From a virus: 38,432 nt of DNA. Below the pieces are notes generated by a model. That model was not told the DNA's origin. It saw only the letters and a list, made by a program, of their open reading frames with translations, and made no database searches. This document shows positions 1 to 38,432 of the stretch, one piece after another. A program made the translations under genes and the position numbers. Numbering within the stretch: position 1 is the stretch's first letter; each line of letters begins with the position of its first letter. Location: positions 1 to 38,432 of IMG/VR virus record IMGVR_UViG_3300045988_091866; one strand, written 5' to 3'.

Positions 1-99
1 CTTTTTTTTCTTGTTGCAGCAGGTATAATAATAATGCTTTTCTCCATTACGTGATGTTCCGGAGTCGCCGAACAAGGATGCACCGCACTGTGCGCAAAC
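1..99. repeat. Terminal redundancy, copy 1 of an exact 99-bp direct repeat (identical to 38334..38432); circular-closure overlap
   Basis: Read directly: cttttttttcttgttgcagcagg...gcaccgcactgtgcgcaaac is identical base for base at both window ends, and it lies inside the integrase reading frame. Confidence 0.95.
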
Positions 100-921
100 A
101 AGCTTCCCTGTTAAAACAAAACTGTCACCTTTTCTTTTTGTCATTTTTTTAAGCTCCCTTCTTTCTTGAATTGCGTTATATTCTTCCAAACTGATTATCG
201 CCGGGATCATATTATCTATATATTGACCTTTAAATTTATAGGCCCCGGCATTACAGCGGTTATCAAGCATAGACGTAATATTGATTTCTGTGAAAGGTTT
301 TCCCTTATGCCAGCGCCAACCTCTGCGATTGAAATCTCGCTTTATAGCAGCAATAGTCTTTCCTTGCAAATACTGATCTTTAGCTTCTCGGATGATCATG
401 GCTTCCTCGGGTACGATTTCCGGCCTGCCATCGGCACCAGTACGATGCCCGAACTTACGTTGACCACCGTTACTCTTGCCTTTCAAAGCATTGTTGTCCA
501 TTCCGCGCCTGACCTTCTGGCTCAGCTCCAGAGAGTAATATTCAGCCATGCCTTCCAGGACGGATTCAAGGATGACAGATTCCGGATTGTCAGATAGGTT
601 CTCCATAGCTGACAATAGTCTTATGTTATTTTTCTTCAAGCGCGCTTTAAGTGTGGCGCTGTCATAGCGGTTGCGTGCGAAGCGATCCAGCCGATAGACG
701 ATAACTACATCCACCTGCTTTCGATCGCAGTCATAGAGCATGCGCTGCAGCTCTGGACGGTTCTCTGCGTGCTTCCCGGAGATCGCCTTGTCAGCGTAGG
801 TGCCAACAATTTCGATATTGTTTCGTTTTGCATAATCTTCAATGATCGCGATCTGCTGCTCAATAGATTCACTTTTCTGGCTCGCTGATGAGTAGCGAGC
901 ATAGATATAACCTCTTTGCAT
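1..921 (-). CDS. Large serine recombinase (phage integrase), N-terminal 307 codons; the ORF runs off the left edge and continues at 38333..37701 through the overlap
   Basis: My own minus-strand translation from ATG 921 gives MQRGYIYARYSSASQKSESIEQQIAIIEDYAKRNNIEIVGTYADKAISGKHAENRPELQRMLYDCDRKQVDVVIVYRLDRFARN..., a resolvase catalytic domain with the Y-x-R-x-S-x3-Q serine motif. This is followed by a recombinase domain and the start of a CxxC zinc ribbon. AAGGAGG sits at 931-937, 9 nt upstream. The ORF is missing from the ORF track because it has no stop on this side of the window. Confidence 0.92.
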   Translation of the reverse strand, partial: MQRGYIYARYSSASQKSESIEQQIAIIEDYAKRNNIEIVGTYADKAISGKHAENRPELQRMLYDCDRKQVDVVIVYRLDRFARNRYDSATLKARLKKNNIRLLSAMENLSDNPESVILESVLEGMAEYYSLELSQKVRRGMDNNALKGKSNGGQRKFGHRTGADGRPEIVPEEAMIIREAKDQYLQGKTIAAIKRDFNRRGWRWHKGKPFTEINITSMLDNRCNAGAYKFKGQYIDNMIPAIISLEEYNAIQERRELKKMTKRKGDSFVLTGKLVCAQCGASLFGDSGTSRNGEKHYYYTCCNKKKK

Positions 922-1577: not shown

Positions 1578-2303
1578 TTATTTCATCACTCCGATAACTC
1601 TTCCGACGCAGCGGAAATCACTGTATTCTGATGGGATGATGTCTGGATATTTTGGATTATGGGAAATCAATCGATCTTCCCCGAATTCTTTAACATAGGA
1701 CTGACCGTCGATGATGAAAATACCAATTTCGCCGACATTGACAGACTCAGTGTGCTGCACAAGCAGCTTATCTCCATCAGAGAACGTCGGATCCATTGAA
1801 TCGCCGTCGACGTTTATCACATAATCTGATTTACGATTTTTTGGCGTGTCAGGCAGCATGATTTCAGATGCGTCCATGCCATCAATTAAGTATTCGCCGT
1901 ACCCTGCTGACGCACCTTGAGAGTAGTAGACTCTTGGAATATAAGTCATAGGTTCCTCAGCAATTTCGGCTTCGTAATTGCAGCGTTCATATTCTATATC
2001 TAATACAGAATTTACTGCTTTCTTTCCGTACGCATCAAGCGCACGGAGTTTTTTTATGTGTTCCTGCTCAGAGATAGTGCATTGAAACTCAGAATTACCA
2101 TAATAGTCAAGCAAATATGAAGCGGATACTTTTAGCACTTCGCACAATTTGATTATTTTTTCAGCGTCAGGCTTATTTAAATCACGTTCCCAATTGCTAA
2201 TTACACCGGATGATGCTTTTACTTCTATCAAATTAGCTAGCTCAGCTTGAGATATTCCGAGATTTTCTCTAGCTTTTTTTATGCGCTCACCAAGAGTGTT
2301 CAT
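1578..2303 (-). CDS. CI/LexA-like phage repressor: N-terminal XRE-type HTH plus C-terminal S24 peptidase (autocleavage) domain
   Basis: MNTLGERIKKARENLGISQAELANL... is an HTH and ...VDGDSMDPTF... is the S24 Ser motif. ATG 2303 is preceded by AAGGAGG (2311-2317). The 59 codons further upstream in the 300-aa track ORF run through the promoter region. Confidence 0.9.
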   Translation of the reverse strand: MNTLGERIKKARENLGISQAELANLIEVKASSGVISNWERDLNKPDAEKIIKLCEVLKVSASYLLDYYGNSEFQCTISEQEHIKKLRALDAYGKKAVNSVLDIEYERCNYEAEIAEEPMTYIPRVYYSQGASAGYGEYLIDGMDASEIMLPDTPKNRKSDYVINVDGDSMDPTFSDGDKLLVQHTESVNVGEIGIFIIDGQSYVKEFGEDRLISHNPKYPDIIPSEYSDFRCVGRVIGVMK

Positions 2304-2324
2304 ACAATTCCTCCTTTTGACTAG

Positions 2325-2353
2325 ATTATATAGAAAAAAACATATTAAATCAA
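2325..2353 (-). promoter_or_regulatory. Leftward sigma-A-type promoter for the repressor operon: -35 TTGATT, 17-nt spacer, -10 TATAAT
   Basis: The minus strand reads ttgatt-taatatgtttttttcta-tataat. The -10 is at 2325-2330 and the -35 at 2348-2353. Confidence 0.6.
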
Positions 2354-2394
2354 GAAAATCTGGATTTTGATATGAGAAATTCTCGAAATTAATG

Positions 2395-2423
2395 TTGACT
2401 ATCGTGAAAAACACGTTTATACT
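2395..2423 (+). promoter_or_regulatory. Rightward early promoter for cro: -35 TTGACT, 17-nt spacer, -10 TATACT
   Basis: ttgact-atcgtgaaaaacacgtt-tatact. It is flanked by the palindromes GAGAAaTTCTC (2374-2384) and TCGAGaaataCTCGA (2432-2446), and by inverted TTCGAGAA copies at 2380-2387 and 2431-2438. Confidence 0.6.
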
Positions 2424-2466
2424 GTAATTGTTCGAGAAATACTCGACACGAAAGGAGGAGTTATGA

Positions 2467-2697
2467 ATGTCAGTAAACAAAAAGGTGAAAAGTCTATTGC
2501 AACAAAATGGCAGAACTCAAAAATGGACTATTCAGAAAATGAATGAGATTGATCCAACACTAGGAATGGATAGATGCAAAATGAGTGCCATTATAAACGA
2601 AACTAGGAAAATGACTGGTGATGAATTATTGGCGTTTTGCATGGCACTCAAGATAAGCCCTGATGAATTCGTTTCAAATGAAAAGAGGCTAACGTAA
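2467..2697 (+). CDS. Cro-like small HTH regulator
   Basis: A 76-aa ORF divergent from the repressor, with RBS AAAGGAGGAG 6 nt upstream. It has an HTH-like segment ...MSAIINETRKMTGDELLAFCMAL... Confidence 0.75.
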   Translation: MSVNKKVKSLLQQNGRTQKWTIQKMNEIDPTLGMDRCKMSAIINETRKMTGDELLAFCMALKISPDEFVSNEKRLT

Positions 2698-2874: not shown

Positions 2875-3202
2875 AGTACAACGATATTGCAGAGATAAGT
2901 ATGGCAATGATCGAGATTATGACTGGAATCCAAAATTTTATCCATTCGTTTCTTTTATTTGAAAAGTAATCTTTTCCAAAGCTAGTAAGACCATAAACGG
3001 GATTCGTTCCAACAAGCTGATTTCCAATGGCGACTGCATTAGTGAATTGTTTGTAACAAAGTTTTATATCGACAAGGTAATCCAATTCAGCGTGGAGTTG
3101 ATCTTCTTTGAGATTCAAGGCATCTGCAATTTCTTGAGATGACTTTGACTCATCTTTTAACAATTTGATAAGCTGCTTCATTAATTTTTTCTCATGATTC
3201 AT
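2861..3202 (-). CDS. Tail-anchored membrane protein with a winged-helix-like N-terminus (113 aa), unknown function
   Basis: MNHEKKLMKQLIKLLKDESKSSQEIADALNL...WIKFWIPVIISIIAILISAISLYFTFF. ATG 3202 is preceded by AAGAGGTG and an extended -10. The upstream 105 codons of the 218-aa track ORF start at a TTG with no RBS. Confidence 0.7.
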   Translation of the reverse strand: MNHEKKLMKQLIKLLKDESKSSQEIADALNLKEDQLHAELDYLVDIKLCYKQFTNAVAIGNQLVGTNPVYGLTSFGKDYFSNKRNEWIKFWIPVIISIIAILISAISLYFTFF

Positions 3203-3221
3203 AACTACACCTCTTAATTCC

Positions 3222-3230
3222 ATTATATCA
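3222..3230 (-). promoter_or_regulatory. Extended -10 promoter element (TGATATAAT) for the 113-aa gene
   Basis: The minus strand reads cttGAtataatggaattaagaggtgtagttATG. Confidence 0.5.
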
Positions 3231-3257
3231 AGAAAATCTGACAGAATCGCCCTAAAT

Positions 3258-3290
3258 GTAACACCGAATGATTTATTTAAGACAGATTGA
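3258..3290. repeat. 33-bp direct repeat, copy A (29/33 identical to 3508..3540)
   Basis: gtaacaccgaatgatttatttaagacagattga versus gtaactccaaacgatttattcaagacagattga, at an offset of exactly 250 bp. Confidence 0.9.
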
Positions 3291-3332
3291 AGTACCAGTA
3301 CCGAAGCGAAAGGATAAGGAGTGTGAACAAGT

Positions 3333-3506
3333 ATGATCGATTTATTAATCGGATTAACCGGATTTCTTATGTTCTCAAGTTGGCTACTTCTGATTTTTAA
3401 CAAAAACCTCATGTGGCCAGAGCCTAATGACAATTCGGTATTATTCGAAGTATCTGTCCTGATCGGATCTTCATTGCTGTTTATTCTGTTTGGTTCTATT
3501 AGATAG
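3333..3506 (+). CDS. Small (57 aa) two-TM hydrophobic peptide, antisense to the leftward island; toxin-like or holin-like
   Basis: My translation is MIDLLIGLTGFLMFSSWLLLIFNKNLMWPEPNDNSVLFEVSVLIGSSLLFILFGSIR, with a strong RBS AAGGATAAGGAGTG. It is bracketed by the 33-bp repeats. Confidence 0.5.
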   Translation: MIDLLIGLTGFLMFSSWLLLIFNKNLMWPEPNDNSVLFEVSVLIGSSLLFILFGSIR

Positions 3507-3507
3507 C

Positions 3508-3540
3508 GTAACTCCAAACGATTTATTCAAGACAGATTGA
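3508..3540. repeat. 33-bp direct repeat, copy B
   Basis: See copy A. It is followed by the perfect 12-bp palindrome GGAATTAATTCC (3544-3555). Confidence 0.9.
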
Positions 3541-3570
3541 TTAGGAATTAATTCCATAGCCAACGCCGCA

Positions 3571-3600
3571 CAAAAAAAGGAAGTCTAAATAAGACTTCCT
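3571..3600 (-). terminator. Rho-independent terminator for the 155-aa gene (9-bp stem AGGAAGTCT/AGACTTCCT, 5-nt loop, U-run on the minus strand)
   Basis: The stem is 3578-3586/3592-3600 and the A7 run at 3572-3578 gives U7 on the minus-strand RNA. It overlaps the last codons of the gene. Confidence 0.7.
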
Positions 3601-4052
3601 AAGAGTTGAATAAAAGCAACGATGTAAGGAATCCAATCAGGAACTAAAGCCATTAAACTGATGAGTCGGTCTAAAGAAATGAAATGTGAAGTTACTTTCT
3701 TTGTTCCATCAGTTTGGTAAAAGTAGTTGATTGTAACATTGGCATAATTATTCAAGGTAATGTGTGGCGGTGCGTTCGGCAGAGATTTGCATAGGGTTTC
3801 AAGTTCACTTGTGCGAAGTAATTCTTGAAATTCAAAATGTTGATGAAGATGTTGCTCAGCTGAAAAAGTTTCCCAAGTTTTTAAGGCGATGAAGGCTAAG
3901 CGCCGTATAAGCTTGAGAATAGCGCTTTGTTGAATCTTTAGAGCGTCAGAAGCAAGGTCTGATAACGCTTGAGCTTGAGCAACTATATCCTCAGAAAAGC
4001 TAAGCATATCTCTGTCGTTTGCAATACGCAATTTAAGTGATGCACTTTCCAT
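3585..4052 (-). CDS. Hypothetical protein (155 aa): helical N-terminal part and a hydrophobic C-terminal tail anchor
   Basis: MESASLKLRIANDRDMLSFSEDIVAQAQAL...LISLMALVPDWIPYIVAFIQLLGSLI. AGGAGG lies 8 nt before ATG 4052; the track start at 4061 is a GTG inside the RBS. A TATAAT is at 4078-4083 on the minus strand. Confidence 0.75.
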   Translation of the reverse strand: MESASLKLRIANDRDMLSFSEDIVAQAQALSDLASDALKIQQSAILKLIRRLAFIALKTWETFSAEQHLHQHFEFQELLRTSELETLCKSLPNAPPHITLNNYANVTINYFYQTDGTKKVTSHFISLDRLISLMALVPDWIPYIVAFIQLLGSLI

Positions 4053-4161
4053 AATTTTCACCTCCTTTCTGTATTTGATTATACAGCAAGATGAGTGAAT
4101 GTGTGGCGCTGGCTATGGAGTAGTTTTTGACAACTTAAATGAAAGGAGCGAGGTGAATTAG

Positions 4162-4521
4162 ATGAAATGGAATGGCATAGTGAATGGTTTACCGGCTAAG
4201 CATTTAACGATAGACACGGAAAAAGAAACCTTCTTGATTGATGGTAAGGATTTCTCAAAGGGGTGCTTGAATTTGACGCTTAGACTAAAAGCTGGAAAAT
4301 TTCTGCTTGAAATTAACACCAAAGAGAACAATGGAATCAACGATCTAAAAGAGCTTGCTACTCCTCTGCAGAAATGGCTGGCAAGTAATTATGATCCGAT
4401 GTGCTGCATTGTGGTGCAGGCTGATCGGGTTGAAGTGCTTAGATCTGAAATGTCGATACCTGCAGAAGTAGTAGAAATTCACGAACACTGGATTAACATG
4501 GATGACCGGGAAGCGAGGTGA
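4162..4521 (+). CDS. Hypothetical early protein (119 aa)
   Basis: The ORF has RBS AAAGGAGCGAGGTG and is the first gene of the rightward early block. Confidence 0.75.
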   Translation: MKWNGIVNGLPAKHLTIDTEKETFLIDGKDFSKGCLNLTLRLKAGKFLLEINTKENNGINDLKELATPLQKWLASNYDPMCCIVVQADRVEVLRSEMSIPAEVVEIHEHWINMDDREAR

Positions 4522-4693
4522 TGATGTGGAACAAACCAACGAGGCTGTTTATGACGGATTGGCGCGAGCGCTTGCGGAAGCAATAAGGCGCTTCTACGCG
4601 GATCCAGCAAATGAGGCTGAATTCCAAGAATGGCTCAAACAAAAAAAGGAACCCTCGGCGAGCTTGGCGGCAACCGAGAGTTCAACAAGATGA
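4502..4693 (+). CDS. Hypothetical early protein (about 55-63 aa; start uncertain, GTG 4526 also possible)
   Basis: The ORF overlaps the end of the previous gene and is followed by a hairpin. Confidence 0.55.
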   Translation: MTGKRGDDVEQTNEAVYDGLARALAEAIRRFYADPANEAEFQEWLKQKKEPSASLAATESSTR

Positions 4694-4724
4694 TCTTATT
4701 GGATTGAGATCATCTCTATTTTAT
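4688..4724 (+). terminator. Candidate terminator or attenuator hairpin (9-bp stem AGATGATCT/AGATCATCT, 10-nt loop, then CTATTTTAT)
   Basis: Read directly; the T-tract is short and interrupted. Confidence 0.4.
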
Positions 4725-4761
4725 CACAAGCAATCAAGCTTGTGAAGGAAGGGAGAAATAA

Positions 4762-4941
4762 ATGACAATAACAAACGAAGCAGCTCGCGCTTATGCAGCA
4801 ATCGCCGCACAGAACATCGGCATCAAGGTAGATGATATCATGCTCCTTGTCGATGAAATGATGTATCTAATGGACGTTTATACAGAGGCAGAGATCCTTG
4901 CCAAAATGCGCAAATTGATCGGCCAGGACGGAACAAAATGA
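4762..4941 (+). CDS. Hypothetical protein (59 aa), paralogous to both halves of the next ORF
   Basis: My translation is MTITNEAARAYAAIAAQNIGIKVDDIMLLVDEMMYLMDVYTEAEILAKMRKLIGQDGTK, with RBS GGAAGGGAG. There is an ATGA overlap with the next gene. Confidence 0.6.
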   Translation: MTITNEAARAYAAIAAQNIGIKVDDIMLLVDEMMYLMDVYTEAEILAKMRKLIGQDGTK

Positions 4942-5321
4942 ATTACGAAGAGATGTGCGCCCTTGCGGCAGTGGCCTTATGTCGGATCCCAGTGAGTAAA
5001 AGAACGACCGACTATGAAAGTATAACGAGAAATCTGTGCGAAAACATGATTAAACTGATGCCACGTATGACAGGATCAGAGCTTATCAAGTGCGCTGATG
5101 CCGCCATAAACAAGGGGCGGACAGGTGAGAAAATGGTCAGCAAAAAAGTTGCTCAGGATTACGCGGCCGTAGCCTTGACAGCGGTGCCTGAACAGCTTAG
5201 GGAGACTGATCTGATGTATGCAATCAATTTGTATGACCAGATGGACAAGCTCATGCAAGAATACACGCCTGCACAGATTCGGGCGCAGGCGCTGGAACTG
5301 CTAGATGGAGAGGTGTACTGA
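4938..5321 (+). CDS. Hypothetical protein (127 aa) made of two copies of the same ~55-aa helical domain
   Basis: The C-half VAQDYAAVALTAVPEQLRETDLMYAINLYDQMDKLMQEYTPAQIRAQALELL aligns by eye with the 59-aa ORF. Confidence 0.75.
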   Translation: MNYEEMCALAAVALCRIPVSKRTTDYESITRNLCENMIKLMPRMTGSELIKCADAAINKGRTGEKMVSKKVAQDYAAVALTAVPEQLRETDLMYAINLYDQMDKLMQEYTPAQIRAQALELLDGEVY

Positions 5322-5842
5322 TGCGCAGGCTTAGACGCCCGGCCCTGGTAGTCATCACGGCTGCGCTGACTGCCGGCGTGACGCTCAACCTGCCGGCAGC
5401 TGATGCCGAGACACCAGTACGGCAGACGGTGACCGTGATCGATCTCTATCAGCCTGATACGCCGGCTTATACAGCCGACATGGACGTCAGCTGGCATGAG
5501 TGGCAACCGATCGCCAAGGCGGCCGGGGTTGTCCCGGTGGCGCTGCTGGAGCTGGCCGAGGAGTACAATATCAGCCCAGTCTACGCCGCGGCGGTGTTTG
5601 TACTTGAAACCGGCTGGGGATCATCGTCAGTCTGGCTGACCAAGCACAATCCCGCCGGGATCCGGTGCGGATCTAGGTACTGCAGATACAGCACAGCTGC
5701 AGATGGGCTTAGACGGATGTTTGAGATCATGGCCGACTACTACGGCAACGGCCTGACCACGGTAGCACAGCAGCGCTCGCTGTGGTCGGAGGCTGATGAT
5801 ACAGAAAAGATAGTCCAGCTCATGGAGCAGCTGGCTGAGTAG
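5321..5842 (+). CDS. Secreted glucosaminidase/FlgJ-like peptidoglycan hydrolase domain protein
   Basis: The signal peptide is MRRLRRPALVVITAALTAGVTLNLPAADA. ...AAAVFVLETGWGSSSVWLTKHNPAGIRCG... matches the E-[ST]-G-W-G ... N-x-x-G-I pattern of the mannosyl-glycoprotein endo-beta-N-acetylglucosaminidase family. Confidence 0.65.
   Translation: MRRLRRPALVVITAALTAGVTLNLPAADAETPVRQTVTVIDLYQPDTPAYTADMDVSWHEWQPIAKAAGVVPVALLELAEEYNISPVYAAAVFVLETGWGSSSVWLTKHNPAGIRCGSRYCRYSTAADGLRRMFEIMADYYGNGLTTVAQQRSLWSEADDTEKIVQLMEQLAE
5815..5835. repeat. 21-bp exact direct repeat, left copy (CCAGCTCATGGAGCAGCTGGC); candidate attL-type core
   Basis: It is identical to 7521-7541 and has internal dyad CCAGCT-N8-AGCTGG. 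Confidence 0.9.
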
Positions 5843-5845
5843 CTT

Positions 5846-6463
5846 ATGGAGGCAATCATCAACGGCATCAACAGGATGGCGGGCAGCTATCATGCTCAAG
5901 ATATCTTCCAGGATTGGGTGCAGATGTCCGGGATCTCTATATCAAACCAGTTATTTTTCGATCAACGACTGGAAGAGCAGTATCTGACACTTGCAAAAAA
6001 ATACAACGATGAGCAGTTAAAAGAAATGTGCCGATGGACCGCAAGGCTTGTAGAGCTGTTTGAGAATGATATCAATGATTATCTCGGCAGCATCTACATG
6101 ATGTTAAATGCCGGGAATTCGAGGACAGGTCAATTTTTCACACCATTTCATGTGTGTGTGCTGATGGCCAAGGCGGTACTTACTGGATATAGCGGCGAAA
6201 AGATCACAGCCAATGAGCCCAGTGTCGGCGGCGGGGCCAATTTTCTGGCGGTAGCCAAGGAGATCCAGCGTTTAGGTTACGATTATCAAAGTTTGCTTGA
6301 CGTTGTCGCCCAGGATCTTGATTACAAATGCGTGTGGATGTCTTATCTACAGTTTAGCTTTGCGGGTATTAGTGCGATATGTGTGCAAGGCAATACCCTG
6401 CAAAATGAAATCAATTTTACCTTAGTCACGCCAATGTATTGCTTGAGAGGTGTGTCACCGTGA
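5846..6463 (+). CDS. N6-adenine methyltransferase-like protein lacking the catalytic NPPY/F motif (205 aa)
   Basis: ...DYLGSIYMMLNAGNSRTGQFFTPFHVCVLMAKAV... is HsdM/gamma-class motif X, EPSVGGGANFL is a degenerate motif I, and ...VVAQDLD... and ...QGNTL... follow. The ORF stops before any NPP[YF]. Confidence 0.6.
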   Translation: MEAIINGINRMAGSYHAQDIFQDWVQMSGISISNQLFFDQRLEEQYLTLAKKYNDEQLKEMCRWTARLVELFENDINDYLGSIYMMLNAGNSRTGQFFTPFHVCVLMAKAVLTGYSGEKITANEPSVGGGANFLAVAKEIQRLGYDYQSLLDVVAQDLDYKCVWMSYLQFSFAGISAICVQGNTLQNEINFTLVTPMYCLRGVSP

Positions 6464-7512
6464 AAAATGATGTAATCAATTTAATCATTTTGAAGCTAAA
6501 TGATAAAATTGAAAGCCGTGAAATCGAGCTTATAAAGAATACGCTAATCACCTGTCTTGAAGATTATGATCTGGTACCTAAAAAGAATGAAGTCGTACCG
6601 TATGGCTACGAAGACGAAAAGCTGATTCAGCTGTTCTTGGTAAGCAAAAAGATTGATGGATTGAGTGATCGATCCATTAAAGTGTATAGGCAGGAGTTAA
6701 ATTCACATCTACACCTATACATTCAAAAAAAGATCACCGACATTACAACGGACGATCTGCGGATGCACTTTGCGAAACGGATGATCGATAGCCCGAATTT
6801 ATCAAAATCGACGCTAAACAGTGAACGGCGGTATTTATCCAGCTTCTTCACTTGGCTTGCGGACAACGGATATATTTCCAGAAATCCAATGCGAGCGATT
6901 AAGATGATGAAAGAGGACAAGCGGATCAAGAAGCCATTTACACAGGAGGAAATTGAACTCATGCGAGACGAACTCAAGAATCGAGTTGAAAAGGCAAGAA
7001 ATAATCGGGATCGGTTTGTCGCAATAAGAATGCAAGCACTCTTTGAATTTATGCTGAGCACCGGTTGCCGTGTAAGCGAAGCTTCCGGTGCTAAACTTAA
7101 GGATTTAAACATGACAAGCAACGAGATTCTCGTGTTTGGAAAAGGGGCAAAAGAACGTGTTTGTTATCTAAACGAAATCTCGATCATCCGCTTAAAACAA
7201 TGGCTTGAGGTTAGATCAGAGATGTCAGTAGACAGTGAGTATTTGTTTACGGGATATCAGAACTCATATACCGATGAAACGCAGCTCGGTGCTGGAAGCA
7301 TTGAGAGCTATTTCCGGCATTTAGGTAATCAGCTCGGGATCAAGTGTCATCCGCACAAGTTCAGACGGACGTGCGCTACGATGGCACTCACAAAGGGGAT
7401 GCCAATCGAAGAAGTACAGCAGATGCTTGGTCACAACGAGATCAACACAACCATGATCTACGCCCAAGTATCGCAAGAGAATGTGAAACACAGTCATAGA
7501 AAATATATGTAA
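6460..7512 (+). CDS. Tyrosine recombinase (XerC/D / phage-integrase family)
   Basis: Catalytic signature: ...STGCRVSEA (Arg), GKGAKER (Lys), HPHKFRRT (His-x-x-Arg), LGHNEINTTMIY (His...Tyr). GTG 6460 overlaps the upstream TGA; the track start is TTG 6439 and the exact start is uncertain. Confidence 0.88.
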   Translation: MKNDVINLIILKLNDKIESREIELIKNTLITCLEDYDLVPKKNEVVPYGYEDEKLIQLFLVSKKIDGLSDRSIKVYRQELNSHLHLYIQKKITDITTDDLRMHFAKRMIDSPNLSKSTLNSERRYLSSFFTWLADNGYISRNPMRAIKMMKEDKRIKKPFTQEEIELMRDELKNRVEKARNNRDRFVAIRMQALFEFMLSTGCRVSEASGAKLKDLNMTSNEILVFGKGAKERVCYLNEISIIRLKQWLEVRSEMSVDSEYLFTGYQNSYTDETQLGAGSIESYFRHLGNQLGIKCHPHKFRRTCATMALTKGMPIEEVQQMLGHNEINTTMIYAQVSQENVKHSHRKYM

Positions 7513-7520
7513 GAAATTGA

Positions 7521-7541
7521 CCAGCTCATGGAGCAGCTGGC
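7521..7541. repeat. 21-bp exact direct repeat, right copy; candidate attR-type core
   Basis: It is identical to 5815-5835, and 24/25 identity is reached when extended through ...GAG. Confidence 0.9.
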
Positions 7542-7556
7542 GGAGGAAAAGGAAAC

Positions 7557-9596
7557 ATGGAATTAAAAAAGGTCATCATCGAGAATTTCCGCAATATCGT
7601 GCATGCAGAGTATGATCTTACATCCCGCAGCATTTTCGCGGGCCCGAACCGCAAGGGCAAGACAAACACCATCCTGGCGATCTATTGGGCGTTAACAGAT
7701 CTGCTGCTTGATGGATCATCCAACTATCAGTCGTTTAAGCCAGGCTACATTGAGGAGGCCGAGGTCAGCGTCGAGCTAGTCTGTGATGCCTTCACGCTCA
7801 AAAAAGTTTATAAGGGTTGGCGGCCAAGACAGCAAGGTTCTGGTGATCCAGGCGATCTGCAACATACCACCGATTATTGGATAGATGGCACCAAGTACAA
7901 AACACAGAGTGAGGCAAAAAGGGCGCTGCTTAAGCTGCTTGGCACCGATCGACAGCTTGAGACATCAAAGTTCGATCTGACCCGGACATTGATTGACCCG
8001 TACTACATCGGTCAAGAGTGTGACTATAAGACGCTGCGAAGCTTTATCGTTGAGATCATCGGCGATGTAAGTAATGAAGATGTCTTTGCATCCGATCCGG
8101 CGCTGCTGACAATTCGTGATCTGATGGCGCGGTATCAGTATGATCCTGGACTTGCGCAAAAGTTTGTCAAGCAACAAGTCACAGCGGTTAAAAAGGATAT
8201 TGAGGCAAGTGAGCAGCAAGTTAAAGGTCTGGAGTCTGTACAGGACGTGGATCCAGCACTGCTCAAAGAGGCTCAAGAGGCGCTTGATCAAATTGACAAG
8301 CAGATCGAAGGCTTACAGGTGCAATTGTCCGGCAAGGATAATCCACAAGTTAACGAGGCAAAGCTCAAACTATCTGATCTGACCTTAAAACTTGCGGAGA
8401 GCCGGACAAAGGATATGGAGGCGGTACAGGAGCACAACCGACAAATTGAGGCGGAGATCAGCCGACTGCAAAAAGTGCAACAGGATGCAGAGCAGCAAGC
8501 GCAGGATTTAATCCGGCGGAAAATTTCCGCGGAAAACGCAATCCTCGGCAATGATCAAAAGATTGTCAGCATTGAGCAGCAGATCGAGGACTTAGAAGCT
8601 CGCAGACAAGATCGGCTACAGGAATACCATGCAAGAAGTGCTGAAGAATATATGCTGCCAGAATCTCAGAAAGAAGTGTGTCCGAATTGTGGTCATGTGC
8701 TCAATCTAGAAGCGCTTGAAAGTTATAGATCAGCCTGGGAAGCTAACAAGCAGCGGGATCTGGACTACATCGTTCGCCAGGGAAAGCAGCTAAATAATGA
8801 CATTGAAAATTTGCGATTTAAAATCGAAGAACTGCGAAAAGGGAAAGCTTCCTCAGAGGAAAATCTACCGCTGATCAAGCAGGAAATCAGATCATTTGAA
8901 ACAGAGGCTCAGCAAGCCCAGGACAGCGTCGGACAGCTGCGTAAACAACTGACTGATATAGTTGACTCAGAGCGGACAACAGCTCTCAAAGAGTCTGTAA
9001 AAGAGGCTCAGGACAACTATGACAATTTGATCAAAGCACAACAGGCATCTGTGGAGGAGGTACAAGGGGAGATCAAGCGGTTAAAGGCTGAGACATTGCA
9101 ACATCACGGCGTGTTGGATTATCACGTCGCCTACATGGTAACTCAGAAAAAAGCTGAGGCTATGCGCAACCAGATCAAAACAAAAGAGGACACACTGATT
9201 GATTTTGAGCAGCAGTCCATTCTGGTTGATCGGTTTTTGGAGATCAAGTTAGGTTTGTTTCAGCGCCGGATTTCCGGCGTGTTTGGTGACCGGGTCCAAT
9301 TTACGCTGATCAAATACAACCTTAAAAAAGGTAGCTGGGATGAGGTGTGCTATCCGTCAGTATTGGATAAAAACACACCGTTCGAGGACGGCTCAGGATC
9401 CGAAAAGATCTTGACCGGTATCTACCTGGCGGAGTGTGTCAAGCGTCATCTGGGACTGGGCGATCTGCCTTATATCTTTGATGAGTGTGACAAGCTCGAC
9501 ACAGCCAGCCTGGCGGCGATTCCGACGCAGGCGCAGATCATCACAACAAAAGTTGACGATGTCAACTATAACAAAGTAACGCTGATTAGCGCATAG
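7557..9596 (+). CDS. Rad50/SbcC-like SMC-type ATPase with a long coiled coil and a CxxC zinc hook
   Basis: Walker A is GPNRKGKTN at the N-terminus. A roughly 400-aa Glu/Gln/Lys-rich coiled coil is interrupted by CPNCGH. Walker B / D-loop is LPYIFDECDKLD near the C-terminus. Confidence 0.8.
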   Translation: MELKKVIIENFRNIVHAEYDLTSRSIFAGPNRKGKTNTILAIYWALTDLLLDGSSNYQSFKPGYIEEAEVSVELVCDAFTLKKVYKGWRPRQQGSGDPGDLQHTTDYWIDGTKYKTQSEAKRALLKLLGTDRQLETSKFDLTRTLIDPYYIGQECDYKTLRSFIVEIIGDVSNEDVFASDPALLTIRDLMARYQYDPGLAQKFVKQQVTAVKKDIEASEQQVKGLESVQDVDPALLKEAQEALDQIDKQIEGLQVQLSGKDNPQVNEAKLKLSDLTLKLAESRTKDMEAVQEHNRQIEAEISRLQKVQQDAEQQAQDLIRRKISAENAILGNDQKIVSIEQQIEDLEARRQDRLQEYHARSAEEYMLPESQKEVCPNCGHVLNLEALESYRSAWEANKQRDLDYIVRQGKQLNNDIENLRFKIEELRKGKASSEENLPLIKQEIRSFETEAQQAQDSVGQLRKQLTDIVDSERTTALKESVKEAQDNYDNLIKAQQASVEEVQGEIKRLKAETLQHHGVLDYHVAYMVTQKKAEAMRNQIKTKEDTLIDFEQQSILVDRFLEIKLGLFQRRISGVFGDRVQFTLIKYNLKKGSWDEVCYPSVLDKNTPFEDGSGSEKILTGIYLAECVKRHLGLGDLPYIFDECDKLDTASLAAIPTQAQIITTKVDDVNYNKVTLISA

Positions 9597-37700: not shown

Positions 37701-38432
37701 TTAATATGCTGCATGGCTGCTTGCAATAACAGCCATGTAAGACGGGATAAGATAAAGGTTCGGATGTATTAAAATTTTTTCCACCATAGTAAAGTTATCC
37801 GAACCGCTGAATAGCGGTTTTTGTTTTGTGTCAATGTTGGTAGCCTGAAGGTTGTAGGCTACCTTGATATCAAATTTGCCATCTTCGTGGACATTGACCT
37901 GGATTTCTCGGATAAGCATATTCACAATATCTTCTTGCCATTTTGGATCTGTAACGGATCCATTTTTATATTTCATAAGCCAAAATTCAATGCGTTCTTT
38001 CGTCATCATCGGCTTAATGGATTCGATCTGATGCAGCCTGTTTTTCAGCTCAACTTGTCGTTGTTCCAAAGCAGCCATTTGATCTTTCAACGACGCAGAG
38101 TACAAGCCATCTTCTATAGCGCGAATGATATTTGAGATTTTCTTTTCAACGTCTCTTAAATCGCGAGTAGTAATCTCTTTTTCCAGGGCGTATGAGTCAT
38201 CCTTCTCCATGATTTCTGCACATCTTTCTGCGATGGTGGAAATAATGTCTTCTTTTAAAATAGCATTTTTAGTAAGCTCAAAAACCGCAGATTCGAGATC
38301 AGCTTTCACCACAGATTTCATACTGCAGGTTTTCTTTTTTTTCTTGTTGCAGCAGGTATAATAATAATGCTTTTCTCCATTACGTGATGTTCCGGAGTCG
38401 CCGAACAAGGATGCACCGCACTGTGCGCAAAC
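37701..38432 (-). CDS. Large serine recombinase, C-terminal part (zinc ribbon plus coiled-coil); same gene as 1..921 across the circular junction
   Basis: ...CAQCGASLFGDSGTSRNGEKHYYYTCCNKKKKKTCSMKS... is followed by a coiled coil (MAALEQRQVELKNRLHQIES). The frame is continuous with 1..921, and the joined gene is 517 aa. Confidence 0.92.
   Translation of the reverse strand, partial: VCAQCGASLFGDSGTSRNGEKHYYYTCCNKKKKKTCSMKSVVKADLESAVFELTKNAILKEDIISTIAERCAEIMEKDDSYALEKEITTRDLRDVEKKISNIIRAIEDGLYSASLKDQMAALEQRQVELKNRLHQIESIKPMMTKERIEFWLMKYKNGSVTDPKWQEDIVNMLIREIQVNVHEDGKFDIKVAYNLQATNIDTKQKPLFSGSDNFTMVEKILIHPNLYLIPSYMAVIASSHAAY
38334..38432. repeat. Terminal redundancy, copy 2 (identical to 1..99)
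   Basis: Same 99 nt as 1..99. On the minus strand it encodes VCAQCGASLFGDSGTSRNGEKHYYYTCCNKKKKK in both copies. Confidence 0.95.

What the first reader, a model, noticed from the sequence alone, without database searches (positions are those of the whole stretch)
5815..7541. A 1.7-kb tyrosine-recombinase cassette nested inside the phage, bounded by a 21-bp direct repeat with core-site symmetry
**The repeat**
- CCAGCTCATGGAGCAGCTGGC occurs exactly at 5815-5835 and again at 7521-7541, and reaches 24/25 identity when extended through ...GAG.
- The repeat is itself a dyad, CCAGCT-N8-AGCTGG. This is the arm/8-bp-spacer/arm layout of tyrosine-recombinase crossover sites.

**The cassette**
- Exactly two genes lie between the copies: a methyltransferase-like ORF and a tyrosine recombinase whose 3' end abuts the right repeat.
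- By eye, the recombinase gene is much more AT-rich than the flanking genes.

**The restored junction**
- Removing one 1706-bp unit in silico makes the upstream glucosaminidase-like ORF read ...QLMEQLAEEKETWN*.
- That ORF would then stop 10 nt into the next gene (ATG 7557), which is a typical compact phage gene junction.

**Interpretation**
- The phage already has a serine integrase for chromosomal integration.
- This therefore looks like an autonomous mini integrative element, or a mobile cargo cassette, that uses a phage gene junction as its attB.
- An alternative is a multimer-resolution or inversion module acquired with its site.
Basis: partly seen in the sequence, partly recalled or inferred. 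Interest (0 to 1): 0.75.

Follow-up and report, generated by a model that had tools for sequence, protein, structure and literature searches.

The report
Recombinase gene pair nested in phage
A 1.7-kb pair of genes (a Xer-like tyrosine recombinase and a truncated methyltransferase-like partner) is inserted at the end of a phage gene between two copies of a 21-bp sequence; related phages carry the exact empty site, so it is probably a small site-specific insertion, but movement by its own recombinase is not shown.

Summary
CCAGCTCATGGAGCAGCTGGC occurs exactly twice, 1706 bp apart, around two translationally coupled genes: a half-methyltransferase-like ORF (mt) and an intact Xer-like tyrosine recombinase (rec).

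The right copy is a displaced remnant of the 3' end of the upstream glucosaminidase-like gene (gluc). At least nine related Holdemania-type phage contigs carry the empty site. One (L111) has exactly the predicted junction, ...QLMEQLAEEKETWN* overlapping the next gene by 10 nt.

All three variants of the site's central codon (GAG, ATC, TGT) occur in empty sites, left junctions and right junctions. The cassette can be 99-100% identical between phages whose gluc genes are 77% identical.

My best reading (about 0.55) is Campbell-type site-specific insertion at a 7-6-7 dyad, catalysed by rec.

Several points weaken the "autonomous element with cargo" interpretation:
- mt is not cargo. The mt-rec pair was present in 8 of 8 distant homologue contexts checked, including a Mu-like phage.
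- The four other phage groups whose pair was checked for repeats show none, and in two of them the pair is either fixed or swapped with another gene.
- Four close relatives lack the right repeat.
- No excised-circle junction was found.

The main rival (about 0.3) is a scar from ordinary short-homology mosaic recombination.

The parts
5321..5842 (+). Target gene gluc: a secreted glucosaminidase-domain protein of 173 aa. Its last 9 codons (VQLMEQLAE*) contain the left repeat, and its stop codon TAG (5840-5842) is supplied by the cassette side of the junction.
   Evidence: Pfam PF01832, E 2e-8. GC is 0.605 against 0.461 for the genome. Empty alleles end ...QLAEGR*...QLAEEKETWN* and similar.
5815..5835 (+). 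Left repeat (candidate attL core): CCAGCTC-ATGGAG-CAGCTGG(C). It is coding and part of gluc.
   Evidence: Exact match.
5846..6463 (+). mt: a 205-aa half-methyltransferase-like protein (phrog_5696). It has an N-terminal helical domain and the SAM-binding half of a Rossmann fold. TPMY replaces the NPPY motif, and the fold has only 4 beta strands.
   Evidence: Pfam N6_Mtase covers profile positions 4-117 of 311. phrog_5696 E 1e-61. Alignment. AF2 model pLDDT 92. Foldseek best matches are HsdM and gamma-class m6A MTases. Motif positions.
6460..7512 (+). rec: a 350-aa Xer-like simple tyrosine recombinase. The GTG start overlaps the mt stop as GTGA. Catalytic residues are R204, K228/K231, H299-x-x-R302, H325 and Y334.
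   Evidence: PF00589 E 2e-38 plus Phage_int_SAM_4. NCBIfam XerA, XerC and XerD are the best hits but below cut-off. Best PDB sequence hits are XerC-like 4a8e, XerA and XerD. Residues.
7513..7556 (+). Non-coding remnant of the original gluc 3' end. It consists of the linker GAAATTGA, the right repeat, and the original tail GGAGGAAAAGGAAAC up to the next gene's ATG.
   Evidence: From the core onward it is identical to the empty-site contig L111.
7521..7541 (+). Right repeat (candidate attR core).
   Evidence: Exact match.
7557..9596 (+). Downstream gene: a 679-aa SbcC/SMC-like ATPase. In the empty-site phage L111 its ATG overlaps the gluc stop by 10 nt.
   Evidence: phrog_77. Context of L111.
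37704..38432 (-). C-terminal part of the phage's large serine integrase. The gene runs across the ends of the circular contig.
   Evidence: Zn_ribbon_recom. Circularised ORF of about 517 aa starting MQRGYIYARYSS.
1..921 (-). N-terminal part of the same serine integrase. Positions 1-99 duplicate 38334-38432.

Best explanation
The window carries a 1706-bp insertion relative to sister phages. It consists of two translationally coupled genes, mt and rec. It sits inside the last codons of the phage gene gluc and is bounded by a duplication of the gluc 3' end: 21 bp exact here, and 26 of 27 bp in the ATC-type relatives.

The most likely origin is Campbell-type site-specific recombination. A circular mt-rec unit carrying a matching site (rec stop, linker, CCAGCTS-ATGNNN-CAGCTGG, then GAGTAGCTT and the mt ATG) recombined with the same sequence in gluc. 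The cassette's own Xer-like tyrosine recombinase would have catalysed this.

Insertion leaves gluc almost intact (...QLAE* instead of ...QLAEGR* or ...QLAEEKETWN*). It places the promoter-less pair under gluc transcription and translation.

**Shown**
- The duplication.
- The exact empty sites.
- The intact catalytic residues of rec.
- The spread of near-identical cassettes across diverged gluc backgrounds.

**Inferred**
- That rec, rather than short-homology recombination, made the junctions.
- That exchange occurs in the interval ATGNNNCAGCTGGC.
- That the unit can excise as a circle.

mt is a conserved partner of rec with unknown role. It is too truncated to be an active methyltransferase on its own. 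I suspect it is an accessory or regulatory subunit of the recombinase.
For: 1. The repeat is exact and non-random, and it contains a dyad.
2. At least nine empty-site contigs have a single copy of the site: L004, L020, L021, L022, L023, L062, L071, L111 and L112. L111 equals the in-silico deletion of the window from the core onward. L023 and L071 share their downstream gene with occupied L012/L045 and L103 respectively.
3. Of 120 gluc protein clusters, 42 have the occupied-type tail and 78 an empty-type tail. All three central-codon alleles (E, I, C) occur in both states.
4. The left and right copies usually share the central 6 bp: ATGGAG/ATGGAG in the window lineage and ATGATC/ATGATC in L001, L002, L012 and L035. 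An ATC-type empty site (L062) also exists. Where the copies differ, the differences lie in the outer arms (position 5 or 7 on the left, position 22 on the right). This brackets exchange to ATGNNNCAGCTGGC.
5. The cassette is more conserved than its target. Mean nucleotide identity is 92-93% for mt and rec against 81.6% for gluc. L002 against L011 gives rec 100%, mt 99.0% and gluc 76.9%. One identical rec protein, P0001, lies upstream of at least three different downstream gene sets.
6. rec is a complete simple tyrosine recombinase with all catalytic residues. Simple tyrosine recombinases are known to mobilise elements, for example Brujita Int and XerT of TnPZ (PMC8138268, read).
7. The phage has its own serine integrase, so rec is not needed for lysogeny.
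Against: 1. The mt-rec pair in the other phage groups inspected for repeats shows no flanking repeats. It is fixed in 12 of 12 loci of the HNH group. In the primase group it is replaced by an unrelated small gene at conserved boundaries. This is ordinary mosaic behaviour.
2. Four close relatives (L031, L032, L033, L039) have no right repeat.
3. Mismatched left/right central codons are fairly common: L003/L044, L029, L104, L105 and L108. Variant combinations imply exchange points in all three conserved blocks of the site. That pattern fits short-homology recombination (RecT or ERF type) as well as a fixed-site enzyme.
4. No attP junction was found in IMG/VR.
5. No empty/occupied pair has near-identical flanks; the best is 85-96% on one side.
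6. The site is not more conserved than the rest of gluc. In the VQLMIQLGE lineage the left copy's right arm has drifted synonymously to CAATTGG.
7. The symmetric arms are only 6-7 bp, which is short for a tyrosine-recombinase site.
Confidence: 0.55

Rival explanations
1. **Recombination scar.** mt-rec is an ordinary accessory early-gene module that phages exchange by illegitimate or short-homology recombination. An ancestor of the arrangement gluc'-mt-rec-X (as in L031-L033) recombined unequally with a phage carrying intact gluc. This left the last 30-35 nt of gluc behind rec. Later RecT- or ERF-type annealing with co-infecting phages converted and reshuffled the two short copies. rec has another job and does not act on the repeats.
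For: - The pair lacks repeats in the other phage groups inspected, and it is either fixed or swapped slot-wise there.
- Relatives without a right repeat exist.
- Exchange points are scattered over all three conserved blocks of the core, and several left/right pairs are mismatched.
- These phages encode RecT or ERF plus SbcC-like recombination genes next to the site.
- No circle junction was found.
- There is no extra DNA-level conservation of the site.
- The cassette has co-diverged with its left junction: each attL class has its own mt 5' sequence.
Against: - It needs two rare events at almost the same nucleotide positions, or repeated crossovers within blocks of 13 nt or less.
- It does not explain why the duplicated segment happens to contain a dyad that only 1.7% of 35-nt windows have, directly beside the genome's only tyrosine-recombinase gene.
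- It explains matched ATC/ATC and GAG/GAG pairs only through population structure.
Confidence: 0.3
2. **Resolution or cyclisation module.** rec, with mt, is a Cre/loxP-like or XerS/difSL-like system. It acts on the dyad at the end of gluc to resolve phage genome multimers or to cyclise or recombine phage DNA. The second copy is incidental. With two direct copies the enzyme would merely delete its own genes occasionally.
For: - rec is closest to dimer-resolution Xer proteins.
- In single-recombinase Xer systems the gene lies beside its site (own knowledge).
- Relatives with only the left copy (the no-right-repeat class) keep the pair.
- The pair is stably kept in other phage groups.
Against: - The pair also occurs as the first early genes of a Mu-like transposable phage, where multimer resolution has no obvious role.
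- Empty-site phages carry the same sequence without any recombinase, so the site is not dedicated to rec.
- No similar dyad is seen next to the pair in other groups.
Confidence: 0.1
3. **Host- or defence-directed module.** The half-HsdM-like protein and the recombinase are early genes that act on host DNA or host restriction-modification complexes. Examples would be poisoning a Type I enzyme or rearranging a host phase-variable locus. The repeats would be irrelevant to function.
For: - mt resembles only the HsdM N-terminal half and cannot be a complete enzyme.
- The pair sits in early operons of unrelated phages, including directly after the repressor in a Mu-like phage.
Against: - No direct evidence exists.
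- rec has no match in the defence-system library.
- It does not address the duplication.
Confidence: 0.05

Closest known systems
Small integrative elements driven by simple (Xer-like) tyrosine recombinases, e.g. the mycobacteriophage Brujita integrase system and XerT-driven TnPZ of Helicobacter pylori (PMC8138268; PMC2731543 listed)
   Same: - A two-domain recombinase without an arm-binding domain is encoded inside the unit.
- Short direct repeats of the target lie at both ends.
- Empty sites exist in relatives.
   Different: - The unit here is only 1.7 kb with two genes.
- The host replicon is a phage, and the target is the 3' end of a phage gene.
- The recombinase has a conserved half-methyltransferase partner.
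- Mobility has not been demonstrated.
Cre/loxP of phage P1 and single-recombinase Xer systems (XerS/difSL, XerH/difH, archaeal XerA/dif)
   Same: - The recombinase is Xer-like.
- The candidate site is a simple dyad with a 6-8 bp spacer next to the gene.
- Two direct copies would make the intervening DNA excisable as a circle, like a floxed cassette that encodes its own enzyme.
   Different: - The symmetric arms are only 6-7 bp, against 11-13 bp in those systems.
- Scores are below the NCBIfam cut-offs for XerA, XerC, XerD and XerS.
- The site is coding sequence of another gene, and it also occurs in phages that lack the enzyme.
Integron gene cassettes
   Same: - A promoter-less cassette is inserted at a recombination site.
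- It is expressed from upstream transcription.
   Different: - The cassette carries its own recombinase.
- There is no attC-like structure.
- Integron-integrase models score far below cut-off: 61 against 265 bits.
Phage morons and mosaic module exchange (illegitimate recombination model of phage mosaicism; relaxed recombination by Rad52-like phage recombinases; own knowledge)
   Same: - An accessory gene block is variably present at a gene boundary.
- An alternative gene occupies the same slot in another phage group.
- Gene-fragment scars occur at junctions.
   Different: - The scar contains a dyad and lies beside a recombinase gene.
- The two copies usually share their central 6 bp across lineages.
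Phase-variable Type I restriction-modification loci with an associated tyrosine recombinase (e.g. SpnD39III/CreX; own knowledge)
   Same: An HsdM-like sequence is adjacent to a Xer-like recombinase.
   Different: - There is no hsdS gene, no inverted repeats and no hsdR here.
- mt is a truncated protein of about 205 aa lacking the catalytic motif.

Membership tests
Tyrosine recombinase superfamily (PF00589), simple/Xer-like group | Catalytic residues R-K-H-x-x-R-H/W-Y in the C-terminal domain | tested here: met
   R204, K228/K231, H299-x-x-R302, H325 and Y334. They align with XerC-like 4a8e and XerA 5hxy. PF00589 E 1.6e-38.
Tyrosine recombinase superfamily (PF00589), simple/Xer-like group | Core-binding SAM-like domain plus catalytic domain, with no arm-binding domain | tested here: met
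   Phage_int_SAM_4/SAM_1 at residues 62-143 and the catalytic domain at 195-346 of the 357-aa reading. An extra N-terminal stretch of about 55 aa has no domain match.
Bona fide XerA/XerC/XerD/XerS orthologue | Score above the NCBIfam equivalog cut-off | tested here: not met
   XerA 182.6 against 220; XerC 160.6 against 335; XerD 148.3 against 330; XerS 93.8 against 267.
Site-specific integrative element (Campbell model) | Identical core sequence in direct orientation at both ends | tested here: met
   21/21 identity here. Present in most close relatives but absent on the right in L031, L032, L033 and L039.
Site-specific integrative element (Campbell model) | Empty target site with one copy of the core in related replicons | tested here: met
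   L004, L020-L023, L062, L071, L111 and L112. L111 equals the predicted deletion product.
Site-specific integrative element (Campbell model) | Excised circular form or attP junction | tested here: inconclusive
   The attP junction pattern gave 0 hits in IMG/VR. A 1.7-kb circle would rarely be assembled into viral contigs, and read data could not be searched.
Site-specific integrative element (Campbell model) | The encoded recombinase acts on the terminal sites | not testable with these tools
   Needs a recombination or binding assay.
Site-specific integrative element (Campbell model) | The same unit occurs at its att site in independent backgrounds | tested here: met
   Near-identical cassettes (rec 100%, mt 99%) lie in gluc alleles 77% identical and next to different downstream genes. 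The target is always the gluc 3' end.
N6-adenine DNA methyltransferase (PF02384) | Motif IV (D/N)PP(Y/F) | tested here: not met
   TPMY at 195-198. The family has xPx(Y/L) throughout.
N6-adenine DNA methyltransferase (PF02384) | Complete seven-stranded Rossmann fold with a target-recognition region | tested here: not met
   The AF2 model (pLDDT 92) has only 4 strands after a helical N-domain. The Pfam match covers profile positions 4-117 of 311.
N6-adenine DNA methyltransferase (PF02384) | SAM-binding motifs X and I | tested here: met
   GQFFTP at 95 and EPSVGGG at 124, invariant in 59 homologues.
Integron (IntI plus attC cassette) | IntI-type integrase | tested here: not met
   TIGR02249 scores 61 against a cut-off of 265.

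The most novel reading that the evidence does not exclude
The mt-rec pair is a previously undescribed two-gene recombination module that is widespread in phages of gut Firmicutes: siphoviruses with serine integrases, Mu-like phages and others. A truncated, catalytically dead HsdM-like protein would be an obligatory partner of a Xer-like recombinase. In Holdemania phages the module would still be caught in its mobile state, as a 1.7-kb self-inserting element that parasitises phage genomes at a gene end. That would make it one of the smallest autonomous tyrosine-recombinase elements, with a virus as its host replicon.
Probability: 0.3. Interest if true: 0.8.

Novelty: new variant of a known kind. 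Interest (0 to 1): 0.6.

Why it matters
**If rec moves the pair.** This would be a minimal two-gene mobile element whose habitat is phage genomes. It would be a natural self-encoding floxed cassette. It would add a route by which phages acquire genes, besides illegitimate recombination.

**Independent of mobility.** A half-methyltransferase is strictly linked to a Xer-like recombinase across unrelated gut phages. This points to an uncharacterised recombinase-accessory pairing, or to an early phage function that no annotation currently captures.

**Practical use.** The site and enzyme are simple enough to test, and a compact recombinase with a site of about 20-30 bp could serve as a tool.

**If it is only a mosaic scar.** It is still a clean, well-sampled example of how short-homology exchange shapes phage gene boundaries.

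Tried and rejected
- **Near-identical public phage.** Megablast of 5 kb against 50,697 GenBank phages found nothing.
- **tRNA target.** There are none in the window.
- **Extra DNA-level conservation of the site.** Diversity in the core columns (0.164) is close to the gluc average of about 0.19, so I make no claim of constraint.
- **Recent excision.** No empty/occupied pair has near-identical flanks on both sides.
- **attP circle or tandem junction.** 0 hits in IMG/VR.
- **The same dyad near mt-rec in distant groups.** None was found. A single 8-6-8 dyad upstream of mt in L076 is within chance expectation.
- **Flanking repeats in other groups.** Loci L076, L077 and L078 gave only short chance-level matches. 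The primase group shows slot replacement without repeats.
- **Defence-system identity.** rec has no PADLOC hit, and mt has only weak Type I MTase hits.
- **Literature.** Four searches found no description of this pair or of a tyrosine-recombinase cassette nested in a phage.
- **MrpR-like repressor idea** (a tyrosine-recombinase-like repressor in phage SPbeta, PMC10516654). I rejected this on the intact catalytic residues, a separate CI/LexA-like repressor at 1578-2480, and the position of rec in the early lytic operon.
- **Integron cassette.** Rejected on scores.
- **Left/right co-variation as decisive evidence.** I first treated it as such. I downgraded it after finding several mismatched pairs, and because one-sided annealing with co-circulating alleles could produce the association.
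Full report
**1. What the window is**

The 38,432-base window is a circularly assembled phage genome: bases 1-99 repeat at 38334-38432. A large serine integrase of about 517 aa runs across that junction on the minus strand. Next to it lie a CI/LexA-like repressor (1578-2480, minus strand) and then a rightward early operon. The operon holds small ORFs, a secreted glucosaminidase-domain protein (gluc, 5321-5842), the two genes of the finding, an SbcC/SMC-like ATPase (7557-9596), a cold-shock-domain protein, RecT, a metallo-beta-lactamase-fold hydrolase and a DnaD-like loader. Close relatives are prophages of Holdemania (Erysipelotrichaceae); one Holdemania genome carries two of them.

**2.

- CCAGCTCATGGAGCAGCTGGC is exact at 5815-5835 and 7521-7541. 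No other match exists with up to 3 mismatches, and none arises in 100 shuffles.
- It is 24/25 identical through GAG, and the copies are 1706 bp apart.
- It contains the dyad CCAGCT-N8-AGCTGG. In most relatives the right copy is a perfect 7-6-7 dyad, CCAGCTG-ATGATC-CAGCTGG.
- Only 1.7% of random 35-nt windows of this genome hold a comparable dyad. Part of the symmetry comes from coding Q-L twice.
- Exactly two genes lie between the copies.
- The compositional argument is weak. GC is 0.415 for rec and 0.455 for mt, against 0.461 for the genome. The outlier is gluc at 0.605.

**3. The two genes**

rec (6460-7512; GTG start overlapping the mt stop as GTGA) is a two-domain simple tyrosine recombinase with R204, K228/K231, H299-x-x-R302, H325 and Y334. 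It is closest to XerA, XerC and XerD but scores below every orthologue cut-off.

mt (5846-6463) belongs to phrog_5696, a family of unknown function. It matches only the first third of the N6_Mtase profile. It keeps SAM-binding motifs X and I but has TPMY where NPPY should be. A confident model (pLDDT 92) shows a helical N-domain followed by only four beta strands, which is half a Rossmann fold. Its best structural matches, all weak, are HsdM and other gamma-class adenine methyltransferases. It cannot be a complete methyltransferase.

**4. What the right repeat is**

It is the displaced original 3' end of gluc.
- Empty-site relatives end ...GTCCAGCTCATGGAGCAGCTGGCGGAAGGGAGATAA (VQLMEQLAEGR*) or variants.
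- In occupied genomes gluc ends ...QLAE*, with the TAG stop provided by the cassette side.
- The old tail survives after rec, down to the old stop codon in L012.
- So the repeat is not explained by homologous coding sequence on both sides.

**5. Empty sites, including the predicted one**

- Empty contigs found: L004, L020, L021, L022, L023, L062, L071, L111 and L112.
- Of 120 gluc protein clusters, 42 carry the occupied-type tail and 78 an empty-type tail.
Its contig L111 has gluc overlapping the SbcC-like gene by 10 nt.
- From the core onward L111 is base-for-base the in-silico deletion of the window.
- L111's flanks are only 80-84% identical to the window. It is therefore the matching allele, not a fresh excision product.

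**6. Evidence on mechanism from about 35 junctions**

- The central codon of the site exists as GAG, ATC or TGT. All three occur in empty sites, left junctions and right junctions.
- Left and right copies usually share the central 6 bp. It is ATGGAG/ATGGAG in the window lineage and ATGATC/ATGATC in L001, L002, L012 and L035, whose target allele also exists empty (L062).
- Where the two copies differ, the differences are in the outer arms. This brackets any single exchange to ATGNNNCAGCTGGC.
- The cassette is more uniform than its target. Mean identity is 92-93% for mt and rec against 81.6% for gluc. L002 against L011 gives rec 100%, mt 99.0% and gluc 76.9%.
- One identical rec protein is found before at least three different downstream gene sets.
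- These points favour repeated Campbell-type exchange at the site.

Against that reading:
- Mismatched pairs are not rare: L003/L044, L029, L104, L105 and L108.
- The combinations imply exchange points in all three conserved blocks of the core.
- Four relatives have no right repeat.
- Each left-junction class has its own mt 5' sequence, which indicates long co-residence.
- The site is not unusually conserved.
- No attP junction was found.
- These phages encode RecT or ERF annealing proteins, which could convert short copies by one-sided homology.

**7. The unexpected result: the pair is a conserved module**

- Five rec homologues at 47-54% identity lie in unrelated phage backgrounds. Each is immediately preceded by an ORF of about 210 aa that overlaps or abuts rec; four of the five carry a weak N6_Mtase hit on record, and the fifth (L078) is about 90% identical to one that does.
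- Three mt homologues at 42-45% identity are each followed by a tyrosine recombinase.
- One of these contexts is a Mu-like phage. There the pair lies between the repressor and the ner-like and transposase genes.
- So mt is a partner of rec, not cargo.
- In the four of these groups whose pair was inspected, there are no flanking repeats. The pair is fixed in 12 of 12 HNH-group loci. In the primase group it alternates with an unrelated small gene at conserved boundaries.
- More distant rec homologues lack mt: 42% identity, 36% (L015) and 30% (Terrisporobacter phage).

**8. Verdict**

- **Best explanation (0.55):** site-specific, Campbell-type insertion of the mt-rec unit into the gluc 3' end, catalysed by rec. 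It has since been blurred by recombination among occupied and empty phages, and in some lineages fixed by loss of the right site.
- **Main rival (0.3):** the duplication is a scar of unequal, short-homology mosaic recombination, and rec does something else.
- **Minor rivals:** a Cre/lox-like resolution module (0.1) and a host- or defence-directed function (0.05).
- I found no description of this pair in the literature held here.
- The kind is known: a small element driven by a simple tyrosine recombinase (PMC8138268).
- The variant is new in three respects: it is 1.7 kb, it lives in a phage gene end, and it has an obligatory half-methyltransferase partner.

Noticed in passing
window 5321-5842: gluc is a strong compositional outlier (GC 0.605 against 0.461 for the genome). 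It encodes a signal-peptide-bearing glucosaminidase-domain protein in the early operon, which is an odd place for a secreted cell-wall hydrolase. It looks horizontally acquired and is highly mosaic among relatives.
   Followed up: partly
window 1-99 and 38334-38432; 37704-38432 and 1-921 (minus strand): The contig is circular, with a 99-nt assembly overlap. The large serine integrase gene is split across the ends, so ORF lists of the linear window miss it.
   Followed up: yes
window 5841-5851 versus 5817-5827: The mt start region AGCTTATGGAG is a 10/11 copy of the left half of the core, AGCTCATGGAG, 24 nt downstream. It could be a third half-site or a coincidence. It is weaker in ATC-type relatives.
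   Followed up: no
L098/L099 (ENA ERZ14651332, ERZ941172), 3001-4760: In a Mu-like phage the mt-rec pair forms the first early genes, between the repressor and the ner-like HTH and MuA-type transposase genes. This phage type needs neither an integrase nor dimer resolution.
   Followed up: partly
L015 5617-5690 and 8510-8583: A rec homologue at 36% identity, without mt, lies together with two other genes between two 76%-identical copies of a tiny gene for a 24-25-aa transmembrane peptide. The block sits between the tail-fibre and lysis regions of a 66-kb viral contig. It may be another nested recombinase cassette.
   Followed up: partly
L075 (Terrisporobacter phage TPELB_ph1, PP197244.1) 3929-4924 and 6813-8396: This cultured phage has a Xer-like 'integrase' between the tail genes and the holin, in addition to a second, larger integrase at the usual position. 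That is the same situation of two recombinases in one phage.
   Followed up: no
window 7557-9596: The SbcC/SMC-like ATPase next to the site has N-terminal matches to defence ATPases (LmuB, AriA, Old, GajA) in PADLOC. Relatives carry at least five alternative genes at this position immediately after gluc, so the gluc 3' end is a mosaic hot spot.
   Followed up: partly
L044 and L045 (Holdemania sp. Marseille-P2844); L021 and L062 (IMG genome 2832183975): One Holdemania genome carries two related prophages that are both occupied by the cassette. The two IMG/VR contigs L021 and L062, whose names share genome identifier 2832183975, are both empty and carry different central-codon alleles (GAG and ATC).
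   Followed up: no
L036 99-1165; L087 5305-6367: rec appears frameshifted in two assemblies. L036 is a contig with 1.7x coverage, so this may be sequencing error rather than decay.
   Followed up: no
window 5815-5834 and 7520-7541, minus strand: Both repeat copies score as intrinsic-terminator-like hairpins on the minus strand (dyad followed by a T-rich run), although all neighbouring genes are on the plus strand.
   Followed up: no
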